Shown here: piece after piece, positions 99 through 3,590 of the stretch
Layout: each line of letters starts with the position of its first letter
Position numbering within the stretch: position 1 is the first letter of the stretch
Virus record (IMG/VR): IMGVR_UViG_2778261464_000003
Span: 1-8,243 of that record
DNA from: a virus
Lineage: Duplodnaviria; Heunggongvirae; Uroviricota; Caudoviricetes
DNA: 8,243 nucleotides
Direction: 5' to 3' (one strand)
The notes under the pieces: model-generated
What the model was told of the DNA's origin: nothing
What the model saw: only the letters and a program-made list of their open reading frames with translations
The model's database searches: none
Made by a program: the position numbers and the translations under genes

Positions 99-722
99 CT
101 ATGCGGACTCGGAAGGAAGTCCAATCATCTTATTCAAATCTTCTACCCGTAAAGCAGGAAGTGCTGTACTTGCTTTGTCTGCTTCTTTTGGTAGCAATTC
201 TTTGCTTTCAGGCCAAACTTCAATAAGTCGCTTAACTGTTGTGACTGAGTTCAAAGCAGCCCATACATTTGATTCGATATCCTTTTTCTTGGCTTCAAGT
301 TTTTGTTGCAATGCGCAGATTTCATCAAACCTTTTTGTTATTTCGTGTTCTGCATCAAACATGCATTTATCTTTGGTTGGAGTAGGGAGCAATATATCTT
401 CGCCGTTGCCGTCTTTCCCATATGAATGCCATCCAACCCTTCTGCCAGATACAGTCAGATAAATTGAAGTAGAACGAACATCGTATGAGTAAAATGAACA
501 TCCCATCTTTTCAAGTTCTTCACTTATAGCTACTAACCTGGATGATAACTGATCCACTTCCTCAGTTTTCTTTTTACCGCCAAACGCAATAACTCTGGCG
601 TCAAGTGCAAGCTGGTTCTTTAACTTTGTTACTTCTTCAAGTTCAGTGAAAACCCCAGACTTAATTAAAGCGTTACGAGCGATTTTCTCTTTCATTCTCG
701 TAGTTAAGCGGATTGATGACAT
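99..722 (-). CDS. Hypothetical early-left (pL operon) protein, 207 aa, charged with coiled-coil-like stretches, no transmembrane segment
   Basis: Long ORF on the same strand as N and immediately downstream of it. The track ORF runs 99-782, but the internal ATG at 722 (MSSIRLTTRMKEK...) is preceded by GAGAGG with 7-nt spacing, whereas the 782 start has no RBS. Stop TAG at 99-101. No family recognised by eye. Confidence 0.6.
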   Translation of the reverse strand: MSSIRLTTRMKEKIARNALIKSGVFTELEEVTKLKNQLALDARVIAFGGKKKTEEVDQLSSRLVAISEELEKMGCSFYSYDVRSTSIYLTVSGRRVGWHSYGKDGNGEDILLPTPTKDKCMFDAEHEITKRFDEICALQQKLEAKKKDIESNVWAALNSVTTVKRLIEVWPESKELLPKEADKASTALPALRVEDLNKMIGLPSESA

Positions 723-783
723 ATTAATTCCTCTCAAATAAGTGGTTTGCTGCCTAATTTTATTTTCTGGCGACCAACACAAG

Positions 784-1201: not shown

Positions 1202-1246
1202 TGCCAGTCTGTTCCGTTTGGCTTCCAGCGTCCTGCTGACGGTTAA

Positions 1247-1275
1247 ATAGTACGATATGTACTTTATTGGGTCAA
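1247..1275 (-). promoter_or_regulatory. pL-like early-left promoter: -35 TTGACC, 17-bp spacer, -10 TACTAT
   Basis: On the - strand, TTGACC (plus 1270-1275) and TACTAT (plus 1247-1252) are separated by exactly 17 bp. The site is upstream of nutL and N and overlaps the operator-like palindrome. Confidence 0.5.
1249..1263. promoter_or_regulatory. OL operator candidate: 15-bp palindrome AGTACGATATGTACT
   Basis: Near-perfect dyad with half-sites AGTAC(A/G)/TGTACT overlapping the pL -10 and spacer. Related copies occur in the cI-cro intergenic region (3516-3530, 3548-3562). A weaker related copy sits at about 1274-1288. Confidence 0.45.
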
Positions 1276-1464: not shown

Positions 1465-1495
1465 AAACCCGGCGCGGTGGCCGGGTTTATTTATT
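1465..1495 (-). terminator. Intrinsic terminator (timm-like) ending the cI-cassette leftward operon; bidirectional in form
   Basis: 9-bp stem AAACCCGGC (1465-1473) / GCCGGGTTT (1480-1488) with loop GCGGTG. A T-run follows on both strands (minus RNA: hairpin then UUUUCUUUG; plus: UUUAUUUAUU). It directly abuts the stop codon (1491-1493) of the 216-aa gene. Confidence 0.6.
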
Positions 1496-2141
1496 GCTTA
1501 GGAGCTTGTTGTGATGACGATTGGTTAGTTGGAGCGCTCGTTAATGGTTGCTGTGTCGGTACCTGTATTATAATTGGAGCCGGGCTGGTTACTGATGGTG
1601 ACTTGTCATTGCCGGAGATAATCCAACTTGAGGCTAACATCACGCCAGACAGAATCACAGTAACTAAAGTCAAGCCAACGGCCATCGCCCACTGAGTCGT
1701 TGTAAGTCCCGTTTTCAAACCGCCGATTTCACCTTTAATTTCAGCAATACCTCTCTCAATAGAAGAAAATTGCTGAGTATAATAGGTTTTAAAGTCAGCT
1801 GATTCGCGACGCATTTCCGCAGCAATAGACTCTACCTCTGATTTGTTTTGTGAAAGCTTTGCGTCAAGTTCTTCTCTGGACATTCCGCTCACGCTTACCT
1901 CCAGGGTATCACTCTTCATCGCTACATCTTCCTTACTTGGGCGCAAACCCGTTTCGTCCATGGCGTATGAAACTCTATTTGATACCTTAGCATCAATACC
2001 AATACTTTGGTACTGAGATGGATCCCCATAAGGAGAAACGGTTGTCGCTGCTAGGGTTGCACTAACTATAATACTTGGAAGAACTGATGATGTTGTTCCT
2101 GAGGTAGGTTGAACTGAAGAAACTGGCTTCAGTCTTTCCAT
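1491..2141 (-). CDS. Cassette gene 3: 216-aa predicted membrane-anchored coiled-coil protein with a Ser/Thr/Pro/Gln-rich C-terminal tail
   Basis: ORF directly followed by the terminator. N-terminal hydrophobic segment (VLPSIIVSATLAATTV), a charged central region (EELDAKLSQNKSEVESIAAEMRRESADFK...), one clear transmembrane helix (WAMAVGLTLVTVILSGVMLASSWII), then a low-complexity tail. The start at 2141 overlaps the upstream gene stop by 13 nt; a weak AGGGA RBS lies about 9 nt upstream. No family recognised. Confidence 0.6.
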   Translation of the reverse strand: MERLKPVSSVQPTSGTTSSVLPSIIVSATLAATTVSPYGDPSQYQSIGIDAKVSNRVSYAMDETGLRPSKEDVAMKSDTLEVSVSGMSREELDAKLSQNKSEVESIAAEMRRESADFKTYYTQQFSSIERGIAEIKGEIGGLKTGLTTTQWAMAVGLTLVTVILSGVMLASSWIISGNDKSPSVTSPAPIIIQVPTQQPLTSAPTNQSSSQQAPKQ

Positions 2142-2395
2142 AGCCCATTATCCCTGAGAGCTACCTGTAATGATTTTACTAATGCAACAGCTTGATCCGG
2201 GCTCATTGAGACTGACATGTTAGGGGTCAACTCAACTTTTACTTGGAAGCTATTCTTTCCTTGCTCATCAGACTGCATGTGATGCTCAAATTCATGGCGG
2301 TAAAAAGTAATGATTGTTTCAGCACGATCAGGCGTAATAAGAACTGATGTGGCGGTCATGTGCTGAGGTATGATTTTAATAGTGTTATCTGACAT
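2129..2395 (-). CDS. Cassette gene 2: 88-aa hypothetical soluble protein (the track ORF extends to 2536)
   Basis: The ATG at 2395 (MSDNTIKIIPQ...) is preceded by AAAAAGGA with about 6-nt spacing. In-frame ATGs further upstream (2431, 2437, 2536) lack an RBS. Stop at 2129-2131 overlaps the start of gene 3. The start is uncertain; the protein could be up to 135 aa. Confidence 0.5.
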   Translation of the reverse strand: MSDNTIKIIPQHMTATSVLITPDRAETIITFYRHEFEHHMQSDEQGKNSFQVKVELTPNMSVSMSPDQAVALVKSLQVALRDNGLWKD

Positions 2396-2587
2396 AAGTA
2401 TCCTTTTTGTTTCCTTAGTATTTTTTTGCATTGACATCAGAAATAGCGAATCCACAAGAGTATGAGTAAAGCTAATCAGTTTAGTGATACGGTGACTATT
2501 AAAGTGGTAAACCACATCAAAGCTCGCAGAGTGCATACCAGGCTGTCACACATGACAAAGTAACGAGGATGCCTGATCTCATAGCGC

Positions 2588-2743
2588 TCAAAGAGACATG
2601 CCGATAATGGCATTAACCACGCATGACGCCATAAACACGCCGCCAACGATGAAGCTGGCTTGGTTCTTCCTGGTAGCGCCAAGAGTCAACAGAACCACTG
2701 AAAGGGCAAAAAAAGGTATCGCGATTATGCTGAACGTGTTCAT
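2588..2743 (-). CDS. Cassette gene 1: 51-aa small membrane protein with two predicted helices (not in the supplied ORF track)
   Basis: Manual translation of the - strand gives MNTFSIIAIPFFALSVVLLTLGATRKNQASFIVGGVFMASCVVNAIIGMSL. A GAGG RBS lies about 8 nt upstream of the ATG at 2743. Starts 78 nt downstream of the cI stop with no terminator between. Two hydrophobic stretches separated by RKNQ. Confidence 0.45.
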   Translation of the reverse strand: MNTFSIIAIPFFALSVVLLTLGATRKNQASFIVGGVFMASCVVNAIIGMSL

Positions 2744-2820
2744 GTTGACCTCAACTTATTTCGATTCTCCATCACCCTTAATCCGCCGCCCCATGTGTTT
2801 GTTGTGATCCGTTGCTGGCC

Positions 2821-3480
2821 TTAACCAAACGTCTCTTCAGGCCACTGGCTGGCGATAACTTTCCCCACAACGGAACAACTCTCATTGCATGGGATCATTG
2901 GGTACTGTGGGTTTAGTGGTTGTAAAAACACCTGACCGCTATCCCTGATCAGTTTCTTGAAGGTAAACTCATCACCCCCAAGTCTGGCTATGCAGAAATC
3001 ACCTGGCTCAACAGCCTGCTCAGGGTCAACCAGAATTAACATCCCGTCAGGAAAACTAGGTTTGGATCCTGTTGGCGCGGTCATGGAATTACCTTCAACC
3101 TCAAGCCAGAATGCAGAATCACTGGCTTTTTTGGTTGTGCTTACCCATCTCTCCGCATCACCTTTGGTAAAGGTTCTGAGTTCTGGAGAGAACATCCCAG
3201 CCTGAACATGAGAAAAAACAGGGTACTCATATTGTTTTTTAACTGGGGCCGATGAGTATTCGCCAACAGGTGAAAATGTCCCGTCGTGGTTGAATGATAT
3301 GTTATCAATACCAAGGTATTTAAACACCACACCAATATCACTAAGAGATGGATGACGAGATCCGCGCAACCAGTGTCCAATCCCACCCTGCGTCATACCT
3401 AGCTCTTCGGCTAACTTCTCTTGAGTTATGCCGAGCTCTTTCATTCTGGATCTAGCCAGTTCATACCATTTCATTTTCAT
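2821..3480 (-). CDS. cI: cI-type prophage repressor: HTH N-terminal domain plus LexA/S24-like autocleaving C-terminal domain (lambda-type), 219 aa
   Basis: The C-terminal ~130 aa ([30 protein letters not shown]...GNSMT...FKKLIRD...[12 protein letters not shown]) match lambda cI residues about 100-236 as I recall them, including the Ala-Gly cleavage site and Ser/Lys dyad context. The N-terminal ~80 aa are a different HTH domain ([22 protein letters not shown]). Start at 3480 (MKMKWYEL) has AAGGA upstream; the track start at 3522 is probably an upstream extension. Confidence 0.9.
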
Positions 3481-3515
3481 GTCCTTATTATTACGCTCTG
3501 TATTGCAACCATCCA

Positions 3516-3564
3516 TGCACAATGTGTATTTTTACTTGCATTCAAAAAGTACATATTGTATTTT
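3516..3564. promoter_or_regulatory. OR/pR region: two operator-like dyads (3516-3530, 3548-3562) overlapping a pR-like promoter (-35 TTTACT 3531-3536, -10 TATTGT 3554-3559)
   Basis: TGCACAATGTGTATT and AGTACATATTGTATT fit the same pattern as the OL palindrome. The rightward -35/-10 pair has 17-bp spacing and lies about 30 nt upstream of the cro start. pRM (leftward) must lie here too but could not be pinned down. Confidence 0.5.
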
Positions 3565-3590
3565 TTCTTCATGGTTACTATGGAGGGCAT

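What the first reader, a model, noticed from the sequence alone, without database searches (positions are those of the whole stretch)
2588..2743. Unannotated 51-aa two-helix membrane peptide directly downstream of cI
The ORF is below the track threshold but has a GAGG RBS at good spacing and two clean hydrophobic helices separated by a short polar turn (RKNQ). Small membrane peptides of this size in prophages are often toxins, holin-like effectors or membrane sensors of defence systems. Its placement as the first gene after the repressor makes it constitutively expressed in lysogens.
Basis: seen in the sequence. Interest (0 to 1): 0.6.

Follow-up and report, generated by a model that had tools for sequence, protein, structure and literature searches.

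The report
Overlooked small membrane gene after cI
A 51-codon gene for a tiny two-helix membrane protein sits directly after the repressor gene of HK97-like prophages; it is genuinely conserved and probably made in lysogens, but its job is unknown.

Summary
Window 2588-2743 (- strand) is a 51-aa ORF with GAGG 5 nt before the ATG and two hydrophobic helices joined by TRKNQ. It is a real gene. Twenty-eight distinct 51-codon homologues keep the frame, with dN/dS 0.04-0.14 where dS could be estimated. Variation is concentrated at codon position 3. Nucleotide homology to divergent copies starts at the ATG and ends at the stop.

The window is an HK97-like lambdoid immunity region. No terminator separates cI, this ORF, gp49 and gp48. 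A strong terminator and then OL/pL follow gp48, so the ORF lies in lambda's rexAB slot. Expression with cI in lysogens is therefore plausible but inferred.

In about 30 prophage loci the ORF lies 9-104 nt downstream of a repressor, across four groups of repressors with little or no detectable similarity. The downstream cargo varies. Chromosomal homologues exist in Klebsiella, Atlantibacter, Enterobacter and others; in Klebsiella the gene follows a LexA-boxed dinI.

No Pfam, PHROG, NCBIfam, PADLOC or PDB family matches. Function is unknown. My best guess is a lysogen-expressed inner-membrane factor such as superinfection exclusion. Toxin, holin or defence-sensor roles are untested. It is a new member of a known kind, of moderate interest.

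The parts
2588..2743 (-). CDS of the 51-aa small membrane protein (stop codon included)
   Evidence: ORF list and sequence. Frame conserved in 28 of 28 distinct homologues, dN/dS 0.04-0.14 where dS was estimable, codon-position entropy 0.55/0.32/1.31. Homology to divergent copies is limited to ATG..stop.
2749..2752 (-). Shine-Dalgarno GAGG, 5 nt before the ATG
   Evidence: Sequence. An SD core at 4-12 nt is present in 26 of 29 otherwise unrelated upstream regions of homologues.
2675..2734 (-). Transmembrane helix 1 (residues 4-23, invariant Pro10)
   Evidence: Hydropathy 2.33. AF2 helix 3-25. Conservation.
2660..2674 (-). Short basic loop TRKNQ (residues 24-28), predicted cytoplasmic
   Evidence: The loop region carries net charge +1 to +3 in all 28 close members and is positive in 16 of 17 distant representatives; the termini are uncharged in all but two distant representatives, which carry +1 at the C-terminus. 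Topology follows from the positive-inside rule (inference).
2591..2659 (-). Transmembrane helix 2 (residues 29-51; invariant G34, G35, N44, G48)
   Evidence: Hydropathy 1.93. AF2 helix 28-50. Invariant columns.
2744..2820 (-). 77-nt cI-ORF spacer without a terminator or sigma-70-like promoter
   Evidence: Scan. Fold -12.8 kcal/mol, z = 0.09.
2821..3522 (-). cI-type LexA/S24 repressor, upstream cistron
   Evidence: ORF. NCBIfam lexA-like. C-terminal part identical to HK97 cI, about 72% identity overall.
2396..2587 (-). ORF-gp49 spacer; no convincing terminator or promoter
   Evidence: Scan. Fold z = +0.85. The only terminator-like hit is a weak 5-bp hairpin at 2613->2598 inside the CDS.
1491..2395 (-). 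gp49 (2129-2395) and gp48 (1491-2141): a separate cargo pair of unknown function, downstream in the same transcription unit
   Evidence: HK97 annotation. PHROG 26809 and 5820. The pair occurs after cI without the peptide in a Klebsiella phage.
1465..1488 (-). Strong intrinsic terminator right after the gp48 stop (analogue of lambda t_imm)
   Evidence: Scan. Sequence followed by TTTTCTTT. Fold -19.1 kcal/mol, z = -3.58.
1245..1275 (-). OL-like operator overlapping a pL-like promoter (TTGACC-17-TACTAT) that reads towards N (1140->784)
   Evidence: Promoter scan. 21-nt inverted match to the OR site at 3546-3566. Sequence. N identified by Pfam and PHROG.

Best explanation
Window 2588-2743(-) is a genuine gene for a 51-residue inner-membrane helical hairpin. 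The basic loop is predicted to face the cytoplasm and both very short termini the periplasm.

It is the first cargo cistron of the leftward immunity operon: cI, this gene, gp49, gp48, then a terminator. This is the slot that rexAB fills in lambda. It is therefore most likely transcribed with the repressor from pRM/pRE and made in lysogens.

It is an autonomous, horizontally mobile one-gene cassette. It is shared with a small enterobacterial chromosomal family and is independent of gp49/gp48 and of the other cargo found downstream.

Almost the whole protein is buried in the bilayer, and it carries conserved Pro10, Gly34-Gly35, Asn44 and Gly48. It must therefore act through helix-helix contacts within the membrane, either with itself or with a host or phage membrane protein. 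My committed guess for the prophage copy is a lysogen-protecting function: interference with an inner-membrane step of infection by other phages, as with T4 Imm, HK97 gp15 or DicB.

Shown: the coding status, the hairpin prediction, the operon anatomy, the linkage to repressors and the mobility. Inferred: expression in lysogens (about 0.75), topology (about 0.7) and the exclusion function (about 0.3).
For: Coding status:
- 36 database homologues, nearly all exactly 51 aa.
- 48 loci retrieved from genome and viral collections, identity down to about 50%, nearly all with an intact ATG, SD and stop; a few are truncated, have a non-ATG start at the aligned position or run 52-54 aa.
- dN/dS 0.04-0.14 with dS saturated, and entropy 1.31 at codon position 3 against 0.55 and 0.32 at positions 1 and 2.
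- Homology starts at the ATG and stops at the stop codon.
- SD present in 26 of 29 distinct upstream regions.

Structure and topology:
- AF2 hairpin, pLDDT 86.6.
- Loop charge is positive in all 28 close members and the termini are uncharged.

Operon anatomy:
- No terminator between cI, the ORF and gp49.
- Strong terminator after gp48, z = -3.58.
- OL/pL at 1245-1275, upstream of N.

Repressor linkage:
- In all 30 E. coli-clade prophage loci examined plus the window, the ORF lies 9-104 nt downstream of a repressor-like ORF on the same strand.
- These repressors form 11 clusters at 90% identity, falling into four groups with little or no detectable similarity between groups.

Independence from neighbours:
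- The peptide occurs without gp49/gp48 and is followed instead by a ParA-like gene, PD-Lambda-2, DUF6932 or other genes.
- gp49/gp48 occur without the peptide.

Precedents for small membrane proteins made by prophages that block phage entry: PMC3594210 (HK97 gp15), PMC9936078 (a 7.9-kDa exclusion protein in the repressor transcript of phage Fc02) and bioRxiv 10.1101/708461 (DicB).
Against: There are no expression data of any kind, and pRM was not mapped here.

The scan flags a weak terminator-like hairpin at 2613->2598, inside the 3' end of the CDS.

Gene callers usually skip the ORF.

For the exclusion function there is no homology to any Sie or defence protein.

Many homologues are ordinary chromosomal genes outside prophages, next to cytochrome b561, Hsp20, PmrD, DUF1304, DUF1440 and others. 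This fits a general membrane or stress role at least as well as a phage-specific one.

In Klebsiella the gene appears to be SOS-induced with dinI. That is the opposite regulation to a pRM-driven gene.
Confidence: 0.55

Rival explanations
1. It is a host-physiology modulator. In this reading it is a small regulatory membrane protein, in the manner of MgtS, AcrZ, SgrT or MgrB. It would bind a host transporter, sensor or protease such as FtsH/HflKC. It would change stress tolerance or lysogen fitness rather than acting on other phages.
For: The family is carried as a stand-alone chromosomal gene in Atlantibacter, Klebsiella, Enterobacter, Siccibacter, Buttiauxella and Erwinia, in non-phage neighbourhoods. 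It is stable within species: one protein is seen on 24 or more contigs and another in 61 blocks of the collection. The protein is almost entirely intramembrane with conserved small and polar positions. Comparison with MgtS, AcrZ, SgrT and MgrB rests on my own knowledge of those proteins.
Against: No conserved partner gene is found in any context. The repeated placement directly behind phage repressors suggests a benefit specific to lysogeny. No homology to any characterised small regulator was found.
Confidence: 0.25
2. It is a membrane-damaging toxin. It would oligomerise and depolarise the inner membrane. It could be a TisB-like SOS persistence peptide, a type I toxin, or the effector of abortive infection.
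For: It is small, very hydrophobic (GRAVY 1.42) and has a Ser40-Asn44-Gly48 stripe and a Gly-Gly pair that could line an oligomer. In Klebsiella it sits 21 nt after a dinI gene whose promoter carries a LexA box, CTGTATATAATCACAG. That would give SOS induction, as for TisB and DinQ (comparison from my own knowledge).
Against: It has a good, unsequestered SD. Its position in a constitutively transcribed repressor operon is hard to reconcile with strong toxicity. No antisense promoter is predicted. No flanking non-coding sequence is conserved that could encode an antitoxin RNA. There are no Pfam hits to the Hok, Ldr, TisB, Ibs, Sho or DinQ families. The exact sequence is carried on 772 public contigs without signs of decay.
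Confidence: 0.13
3. It is the membrane subunit of a three-gene Rex-like system together with gp49 (soluble) and gp48 (membrane-anchored).
For: The three genes are contiguous, on the same strand, between cI and the operon terminator. They travel together in HK97, HK225 and the roughly two dozen viral contigs that carry gp49/gp48. gp48 has a C-terminal hydrophobic segment.
Against: The peptide occurs behind repressors without gp49/gp48 in L045, L046, L050, L051 and L058. It also occurs alone in chromosomes. The gp49/gp48 pair follows cI without the peptide in Klebsiella phage ST15-VIM1phi2.1. No PADLOC hit was found for any of the three.
Confidence: 0.05
4. It is not a gene on this strand. Either the ORF is spurious, or the real feature is the + strand ORF annotated in HK225 (HK225_046), or it is a non-coding RNA.
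For: The HK225 annotators chose the + strand ORFs. The antisense frame is open in 22 of 28 homologues. Most annotation pipelines skip the - strand ORF.
Against: Variation peaks at the third codon position of the - strand frame, and dN/dS is far below 1. The + strand ORF runs into the spacer at 2744-2807, where homology to divergent copies is lost. Its length varies from 0 to 110 aa among homologues. There is no Rfam match and no excess RNA structure.
Confidence: 0.02

Closest known systems
Lambda rexA-rexB (cargo of the cI operon)
   Same: It occupies the same slot: between cI and OL/pL, on the cI strand, closed by a terminator just before OL. RexB is also an inner-membrane protein made in lysogens (established knowledge).
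   Different: There is no sequence similarity. RexB is about 144 aa with four TM helices and needs RexA. This protein has 51 aa and two TM helices, and it occurs without any fixed partner.
Small inner-membrane superinfection-exclusion proteins (T4 Imm, HK97 gp15, P22 SieA; phage Fc02 7.9-kDa protein)
   Same: It is a small phage-encoded protein predicted to sit in the inner membrane, at a position expected to be expressed from the prophage. [quoted passage not shown]
   Different: No homology was found. No exclusion phenotype has been tested. Unlike those proteins, it has many chromosomal homologues outside prophages.
Type I toxins and SOS membrane peptides (TisB, DinQ, HokB)
   Same: Size class and hydrophobicity are similar. 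One context (Klebsiella) has a LexA-box promoter upstream.
   Different: It has two TM helices instead of one. It has an ordinary accessible SD. No conserved antisense or flanking RNA element was found. There is no family hit.
Gifsy-type LexA-controlled dinI-antirepressor operons (PMC3121763)
   Same: In Klebsiella the layout is a LexA box, a dinI homologue and then a small ORF.
   Different: GfoA and GftA are soluble proteins that bind repressors. This ORF encodes a membrane hairpin. No similarity was tested or is expected.

Membership tests
Protein-coding gene (as opposed to a chance ORF) | Reading frame and length kept across diverged relatives, with purifying selection | tested here: met
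   28 of 28 distinct 51-codon sequences are open in this frame. dN/dS is 0.04-0.14 where dS was estimable. Codon-position entropy is 0.55/0.32/1.31. All HMM-detected representatives are 36-57 aa, nearly all 48-57.
Protein-coding gene (as opposed to a chance ORF) | Translation signals kept although the flanks are unrelated | tested here: met
   ATG in nearly all copies. SD core at 4-12 nt in 26 of 29 distinct upstream regions.
Protein-coding gene (as opposed to a chance ORF) | Detected translation product | not testable with these tools
   No ribosome-profiling or proteomics data were available.
Lambda-type immunity-operon cargo (rexAB slot) | Lies between cI and OL/pL on the cI strand | tested here: met
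   cI 3522->2821, ORF 2743->2588, OL/pL 1275->1245, N 1140->784.
Lambda-type immunity-operon cargo (rexAB slot) | No terminator between cI and the gene; terminator at the end of the unit | tested here: met
   No terminator in the spacers. Strong terminator at 1488->1465.
Lambda-type immunity-operon cargo (rexAB slot) | Transcribed from pRM in the lysogen | not testable with these tools
   Inferred by analogy with lambda. pRM was not mapped here.
Moron in the strict sense (gene with its own promoter and terminator) | Own promoter upstream and own terminator downstream | tested here: not met
   There is no sigma-70-like promoter on the - strand in 2744-2900. The only terminator-like hit is a weak 5-bp hairpin inside the CDS.
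Moron in the strict sense (gene with its own promoter and terminator) | Inserted or exchanged as a unit between otherwise different genomes | tested here: met
   Homology limits coincide with the CDS. The gene lies behind 11 repressor clusters and ahead of varied cargo.
Type I toxin-antitoxin | Small hydrophobic membrane peptide | tested here: met
   51 aa, GRAVY 1.42.
Type I toxin-antitoxin | Conserved antisense or overlapping antitoxin RNA with its own promoter | tested here: not met
   No + strand promoter is predicted in 2396-2900. No conserved sequence lies outside the CDS. An RNA lying wholly inside the CDS cannot be excluded.
Type I toxin-antitoxin | Sequence membership in a known toxin family | tested here: not met
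   No Pfam or NCBIfam hit above threshold.
Type I toxin-antitoxin | Toxic on over-expression | not testable with these tools
   Needs an experiment.
Holin / antiholin | Located in a lysis cassette next to an endolysin, under late control | tested here: not met
   It lies in the immunity region, between cI and gp49.
Holin / antiholin | Match to a holin family | tested here: not met
   No Pfam or PHROG hit. The BFVD fold search gave only generic hairpins, none with E <= 0.001.
Superinfection-exclusion membrane proteins | Inner-membrane protein made from the prophage | tested here: inconclusive
   Predicted hairpin in an operon position that favours expression in lysogens. There are no expression or localisation data.
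Superinfection-exclusion membrane proteins | Blocks infection by other phages | not testable with these tools
   Needs plating assays.
Known anti-phage defence systems (PADLOC) | Profile match of the protein or its fixed neighbours | tested here: not met
   No hits for the peptide, gp49 or gp48. Only variable downstream cargo in other phages matches PD-Lambda-2 or PDC-M63A.

The most novel reading that the evidence does not exclude
The peptide is not ordinary cargo. It would be a membrane component wired into the RecA/LexA induction circuit. Its two recurrent upstream partners are RecA-cleavable S24 repressors of several unrelated types and a LexA-controlled DinI, which modulates the RecA filament. 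In this reading it tunes prophage induction or the SOS response from the membrane. Possible routes are control of FtsH/HflKC or of RecA-dependent repressor cleavage. It would be a new class of lysogeny regulator.
Probability: 0.06. Interest if true: 0.75.

Novelty: new member of a known kind. Interest (0 to 1): 0.42.

Why it matters
HK97 is a model phage, and its immunity region was thought to be fully mapped. This analysis indicates a conserved gene missing from both reference records, AF069529 and NC_002167.

The gene lies in the slot where lambda keeps rexAB, and where other phages carry PD-Lambda-2-like defence genes. Whatever it does, it probably does in every lysogen. The exact sequence is on 772 public contigs and in about 1% of complete E. 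coli genomes.

It also defines a small uncharacterised family of enterobacterial membrane proteins, absent from Pfam, PHROGs and NCBIfam. One branch of the family appears to be SOS-controlled.

The practical value is a cheap, well-defined target for a deletion or over-expression experiment. It is also a correction to annotation, including the probably spurious + strand ORFs of HK225.

Tried and rejected
- Profile libraries (Pfam, PHROGs, NCBIfam, PADLOC) gave only sub-threshold noise, for example the PspC TM region at 16.6 bits against a cut-off of 27.
- A PDB profile search gave nothing meaningful.
- An Rfam scan of the whole window gave two chance-level hits elsewhere.
- A fold search of the AF2 hairpin against BFVD returned only generic hairpins. 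The afdb50 library was unavailable.
- An exhaustive HMM search of 1.8 billion representatives found only 18 small relatives and no link to a larger or named family.
- Literature searches for HK97 gp48/gp49, for WP_001091427 and for HK97 prophage defence found nothing on this gene.
- DinR, the sRNA from the 3' end of K. pneumoniae dinI (PMC10907235), was considered. I rejected it because it is described for an 83-aa DinI and, at 157 nt starting inside the dinI CDS, is too short to span a 51-codon ORF, whereas the dinI next to the peptide encodes 80 aa and lies beside cybB; the two loci were not compared directly.
- svsR, an sRNA reported at the 3' end of cI in prophage NC-SV (PMC12803456), lies inside cI and not here. 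I did not pursue it.
- A Gifsy-type antirepressor was considered because of the dinI-small ORF layout (PMC3121763). I rejected it because those proteins are soluble.
- A cleavable signal peptide was rejected. There is no basic N-region, and the positive charges follow the first hydrophobic segment.

Full report
**1. What the window is**

- The 501 bases around the finding are 100% identical to phage HK97 (AF069529, 27818-28318) and to prophages in 52 of 5426 complete E. coli genomes.
- Comparison with HK97 shows a mosaic, hetero-immune relative. gp48, gp49, O and P are about 99-100% identical to HK97.
- cI is only about 72% identical; the aligned 3' end (2821-2900) is 100% identical at the nucleotide level, so the divergence lies further upstream in the protein. 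N is only about 37% identical.
- On the minus strand the order is as follows:
  - cI, 3522->2821
  - the 51-aa ORF, 2743->2588
  - gp49, 2395->2129
  - gp48, 2141->1491
  - N, 1140->784
  - an Nmad5-domain ORF, 782->99

**2. The observation**

- The ORF, its GAGG (2752-2749, 5 nt before the ATG) and an in-frame TAA five codons upstream are present as described.
- The protein is MNTFSIIAIPFFALSVVLLTLGATRKNQASFIVGGVFMASCVVNAIIGMSL. Its GRAVY is 1.42.
- It has two hydrophobic segments, with Kyte-Doolittle means of 2.33 and 1.93, joined by TRKNQ.
- AlphaFold2 on a 28-sequence alignment gives helices 3-25 and 28-50, mean pLDDT 86.6.
- 'Unannotated' is true for both HK97 records and for most RefSeq genomes. 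PGAP does call it in some genomes as WP_001091427.1, 'hypothetical protein'.
- The exact sequence is on 772 public contigs, named only 'hypothetical' or 'putative membrane protein'.
- The HK225 annotators instead called two ORFs on the opposite strand.

**3. Is it a gene?**

Yes, as far as sequence analysis can show.

- A database search found 36 relatives, nearly all exactly 51 aa and 67-98% identical. They come from Klebsiella, Raoultella, Atlantibacter, Enterobacter, Kosakonia and Lelliottia.
- Scans of genome and viral collections added 48 loci, with identity down to about 50% (Erwinia, Buttiauxella, Siccibacter). Nearly all have an intact start and stop.
- Among the 28 distinct 51-codon sequences:
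  - The frame is open in all of them.
  - dN/dS against the window copy is 0.04-0.14 for the divergent copies where dS could be estimated, with dS near or at saturation.
  - Column entropy is 0.55, 0.32 and 1.31 at codon positions 1, 2 and 3.
- Nucleotide homology to divergent copies begins at the ATG (2743-2744, at most 2755) and ends at the stop codon (2583-2597). One example is L007, which matches exactly 2743->2588.
- An SD core sits 4-12 nt before the start in 26 of 29 otherwise unrelated upstream regions.
- The opposite-strand ORF (HK225_046) is open in many copies, as often happens opposite a real gene. It varies from 0 to 110 aa and extends into non-conserved spacer.
- No RNA family and no excess RNA structure were found.

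**4. Transcriptional setting**

- No terminator or sigma-70-like promoter is predicted in the 77-nt cI-ORF spacer or in the 192-nt ORF-gp49 spacer. The only hit is a weak 5-bp hairpin inside the 3' end of the CDS.
- Immediately after the gp48 stop there is a strong terminator: AAACCCGGC-CACCGC-GCCGGGTTT followed by TCTTT, -19.1 kcal/mol, z = -3.58.
- To its left lies a pL-like promoter, TTGACC-17-TACTAT (1275->1247). It is overlapped by a 21-nt site 86% complementary to the OR site at 3546-3566. N follows.
- This is lambda's plan, cI-rexA-rexB-t_imm-OL/pL-N, with the ORF, gp49 and gp48 in place of rexAB.
- Expression with cI in lysogens is therefore a sound inference. It remains an inference.

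**5. Genomic company**

*Prophage copies*

- In all 30 E. coli-clade prophage loci examined plus the window, the ORF lies 9-104 nt downstream of a repressor-like ORF on the same strand.
- These repressors fall into 11 clusters at 90% identity. They belong to four groups with little or no detectable similarity between groups:
  - window/HK97-type S24 repressors
  - HK225-type repressors of about 257 aa
  - short HTH-only repressors of 133-172 aa
  - S24 repressors of 246-250 aa
- What follows the ORF varies:
  - gp49/gp48
  - a ParA-like ATPase (L058)
  - PD-Lambda-2 (L050)
  - DUF6932 / PDC-M63A (L051)
  - other genes
- Conversely, gp49/gp48 follow cI directly, with no peptide, in Klebsiella phage ST15-VIM1phi2.1.
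- The peptide gene is therefore an independent cassette. Its linkage to repressors is much tighter than its linkage to any downstream gene.

*Chromosomal copies*

- Outside this clade the family is chromosomal.
- In Atlantibacter and Klebsiella it sits in the variable cybB/frmRA/trg neighbourhood. Elsewhere it lies next to Hsp20, DUF1304, DUF1440, DUF1349 or a Trp/Tyr permease.
- In K. michiganensis, K. oxytoca and K. spallanzanii it follows a dinI paralogue; the gap is 21 nt in K. michiganensis.
- In K. michiganensis and K. oxytoca the dinI promoter carries a LexA box (CTGTATATAATCACAG in K. michiganensis). No exact-pattern box was found in the K. spallanzanii locus.
- In one viral contig (L049) it lies between a umuD-like gene and a tail-fibre chaperone.

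**6. What it is like**

- Nothing in Pfam, PHROGs, NCBIfam, PADLOC or the PDB matches.
- An exhaustive profile search of 1.8 billion representatives finds only 18 relatives, nearly all 48-57 aa.
- In those distant members the overall pattern persists: an M-S/N-T-F start, IAIPFF, a basic loop, Gly34 and a VVNA..G tail. Only Ala8 is invariant across them.
- Within the close family Pro10, Gly34-Gly35, Asn44 and Gly48 are invariant.
- Termini are uncharged in all 28 close members. The loop carries +1 to +3.
- By the positive-inside rule the loop is cytoplasmic and both ends are periplasmic.
- With about three residues outside the bilayer at each end, the protein can only work through intramembrane contacts.

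**7. Mechanism**

- Shown: a conserved gene for a membrane hairpin, in the repressor operon, mobile as a single CDS.
- Inferred: it is made in lysogens and acts in the inner membrane.
- For the prophage copy I favour, at about 0.3, protection of the lysogen at the membrane step of infection by other phages. The analogies are T4 Imm, HK97 gp15 (PMC3594210), the small exclusion protein in the repressor transcript of phage Fc02 (PMC9936078) and DicB (bioRxiv 10.1101/708461).
- A general small-protein regulator of a host membrane complex is nearly as likely, at about 0.25. The chromosomal homologues fit it better.
- A depolarising toxin (about 0.13) fits the SOS context in Klebsiella. It fits poorly with an open SD in a constitutive operon and with the lack of any conserved antitoxin element.
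- A three-gene Rex-like system with gp49/gp48 is unlikely, because the parts occur separately.
- A holin is excluded by position.

**8. Novelty and verdict**

- The gene is not described in the literature searched. It belongs to no curated family.
- Its kind is familiar: a small membrane protein carried as cargo in a prophage's repressor operon.
- I rate it a new member of a known kind, with interest 0.42.
- The most novel reading not excluded is a membrane component wired into the RecA/LexA induction circuit. It is suggested by the double association with S24 repressors and with LexA-controlled DinI. I give it about 6%.

Noticed in passing
window 2462-2563 (+) and about 2607-2807 (+): HK225_045 and HK225_046, annotated in phage HK225 (JQ086371), lie antisense to the conserved 51-aa CDS and its spacer. 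Codon-position variation and the limits of homology indicate that they are probably mis-annotations.
   Followed up: yes
window 1491-2395 (-): gp49 (88 aa) and gp48 (216 aa, with a C-terminal hydrophobic segment) overlap by 13 nt. They form a cargo pair of unknown function (PHROG 26809 and 5820, no PADLOC hit). Distant homologues of the pair follow cI directly in Klebsiella phage ST15-VIM1phi2.1.
   Followed up: partly
window 1245-1275 and 1465-1488: An OL-like operator overlaps a pL-like promoter. A strong t_imm-like terminator lies directly after gp48. These place the left border of the immunity operon.
   Followed up: yes
window 2764-2796; L051 4236-4267: Homology of several heteroimmune phages (L029, L045, L046, L047) starts at exactly 2796, so this is a recurrent mosaic breakpoint. 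A 32-nt copy of the spacer (2795-2764) lies downstream of the ORF in L051. The significance is unknown.
   Followed up: no
L050 4204-5554; L051 4344-4928; L058 4474-5583: In other prophages the slot just after the peptide carries PD-Lambda-2 (a HigB-like plus HTH pair), a DUF6932 / PDC-M63A protein or a ParA-like ATPase. The post-repressor slot therefore behaves as a cargo or defence hotspot.
   Followed up: partly
L056 3701-4183 (Klebsiella michiganensis): A LexA box overlaps the promoter of a dinI paralogue. The peptide gene follows 21 nt after the dinI stop. The layout resembles the Gifsy dinI-antirepressor operons (PMC3121763).
   Followed up: partly
window 99-782 (-): A 227-aa ORF directly downstream of N matches Pfam Nmad5, 'nucleotide modification associated domain 5' (E = 5e-72), and PHROG 1965. 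Most HK97-type loci carry only a 17-residue fragment of it or none.
   Followed up: no
window 2821-3522 (-): The repressor looks like a hybrid. Its 3' end is identical to HK97 cI, but overall protein identity is only about 72%, which suggests a different N-terminal DNA-binding part and a different immunity specificity. An sRNA, svsR, has been reported at the 3' end of cI in prophage NC-SV (PMC12803456). I did not test whether it is present here.
   Followed up: no
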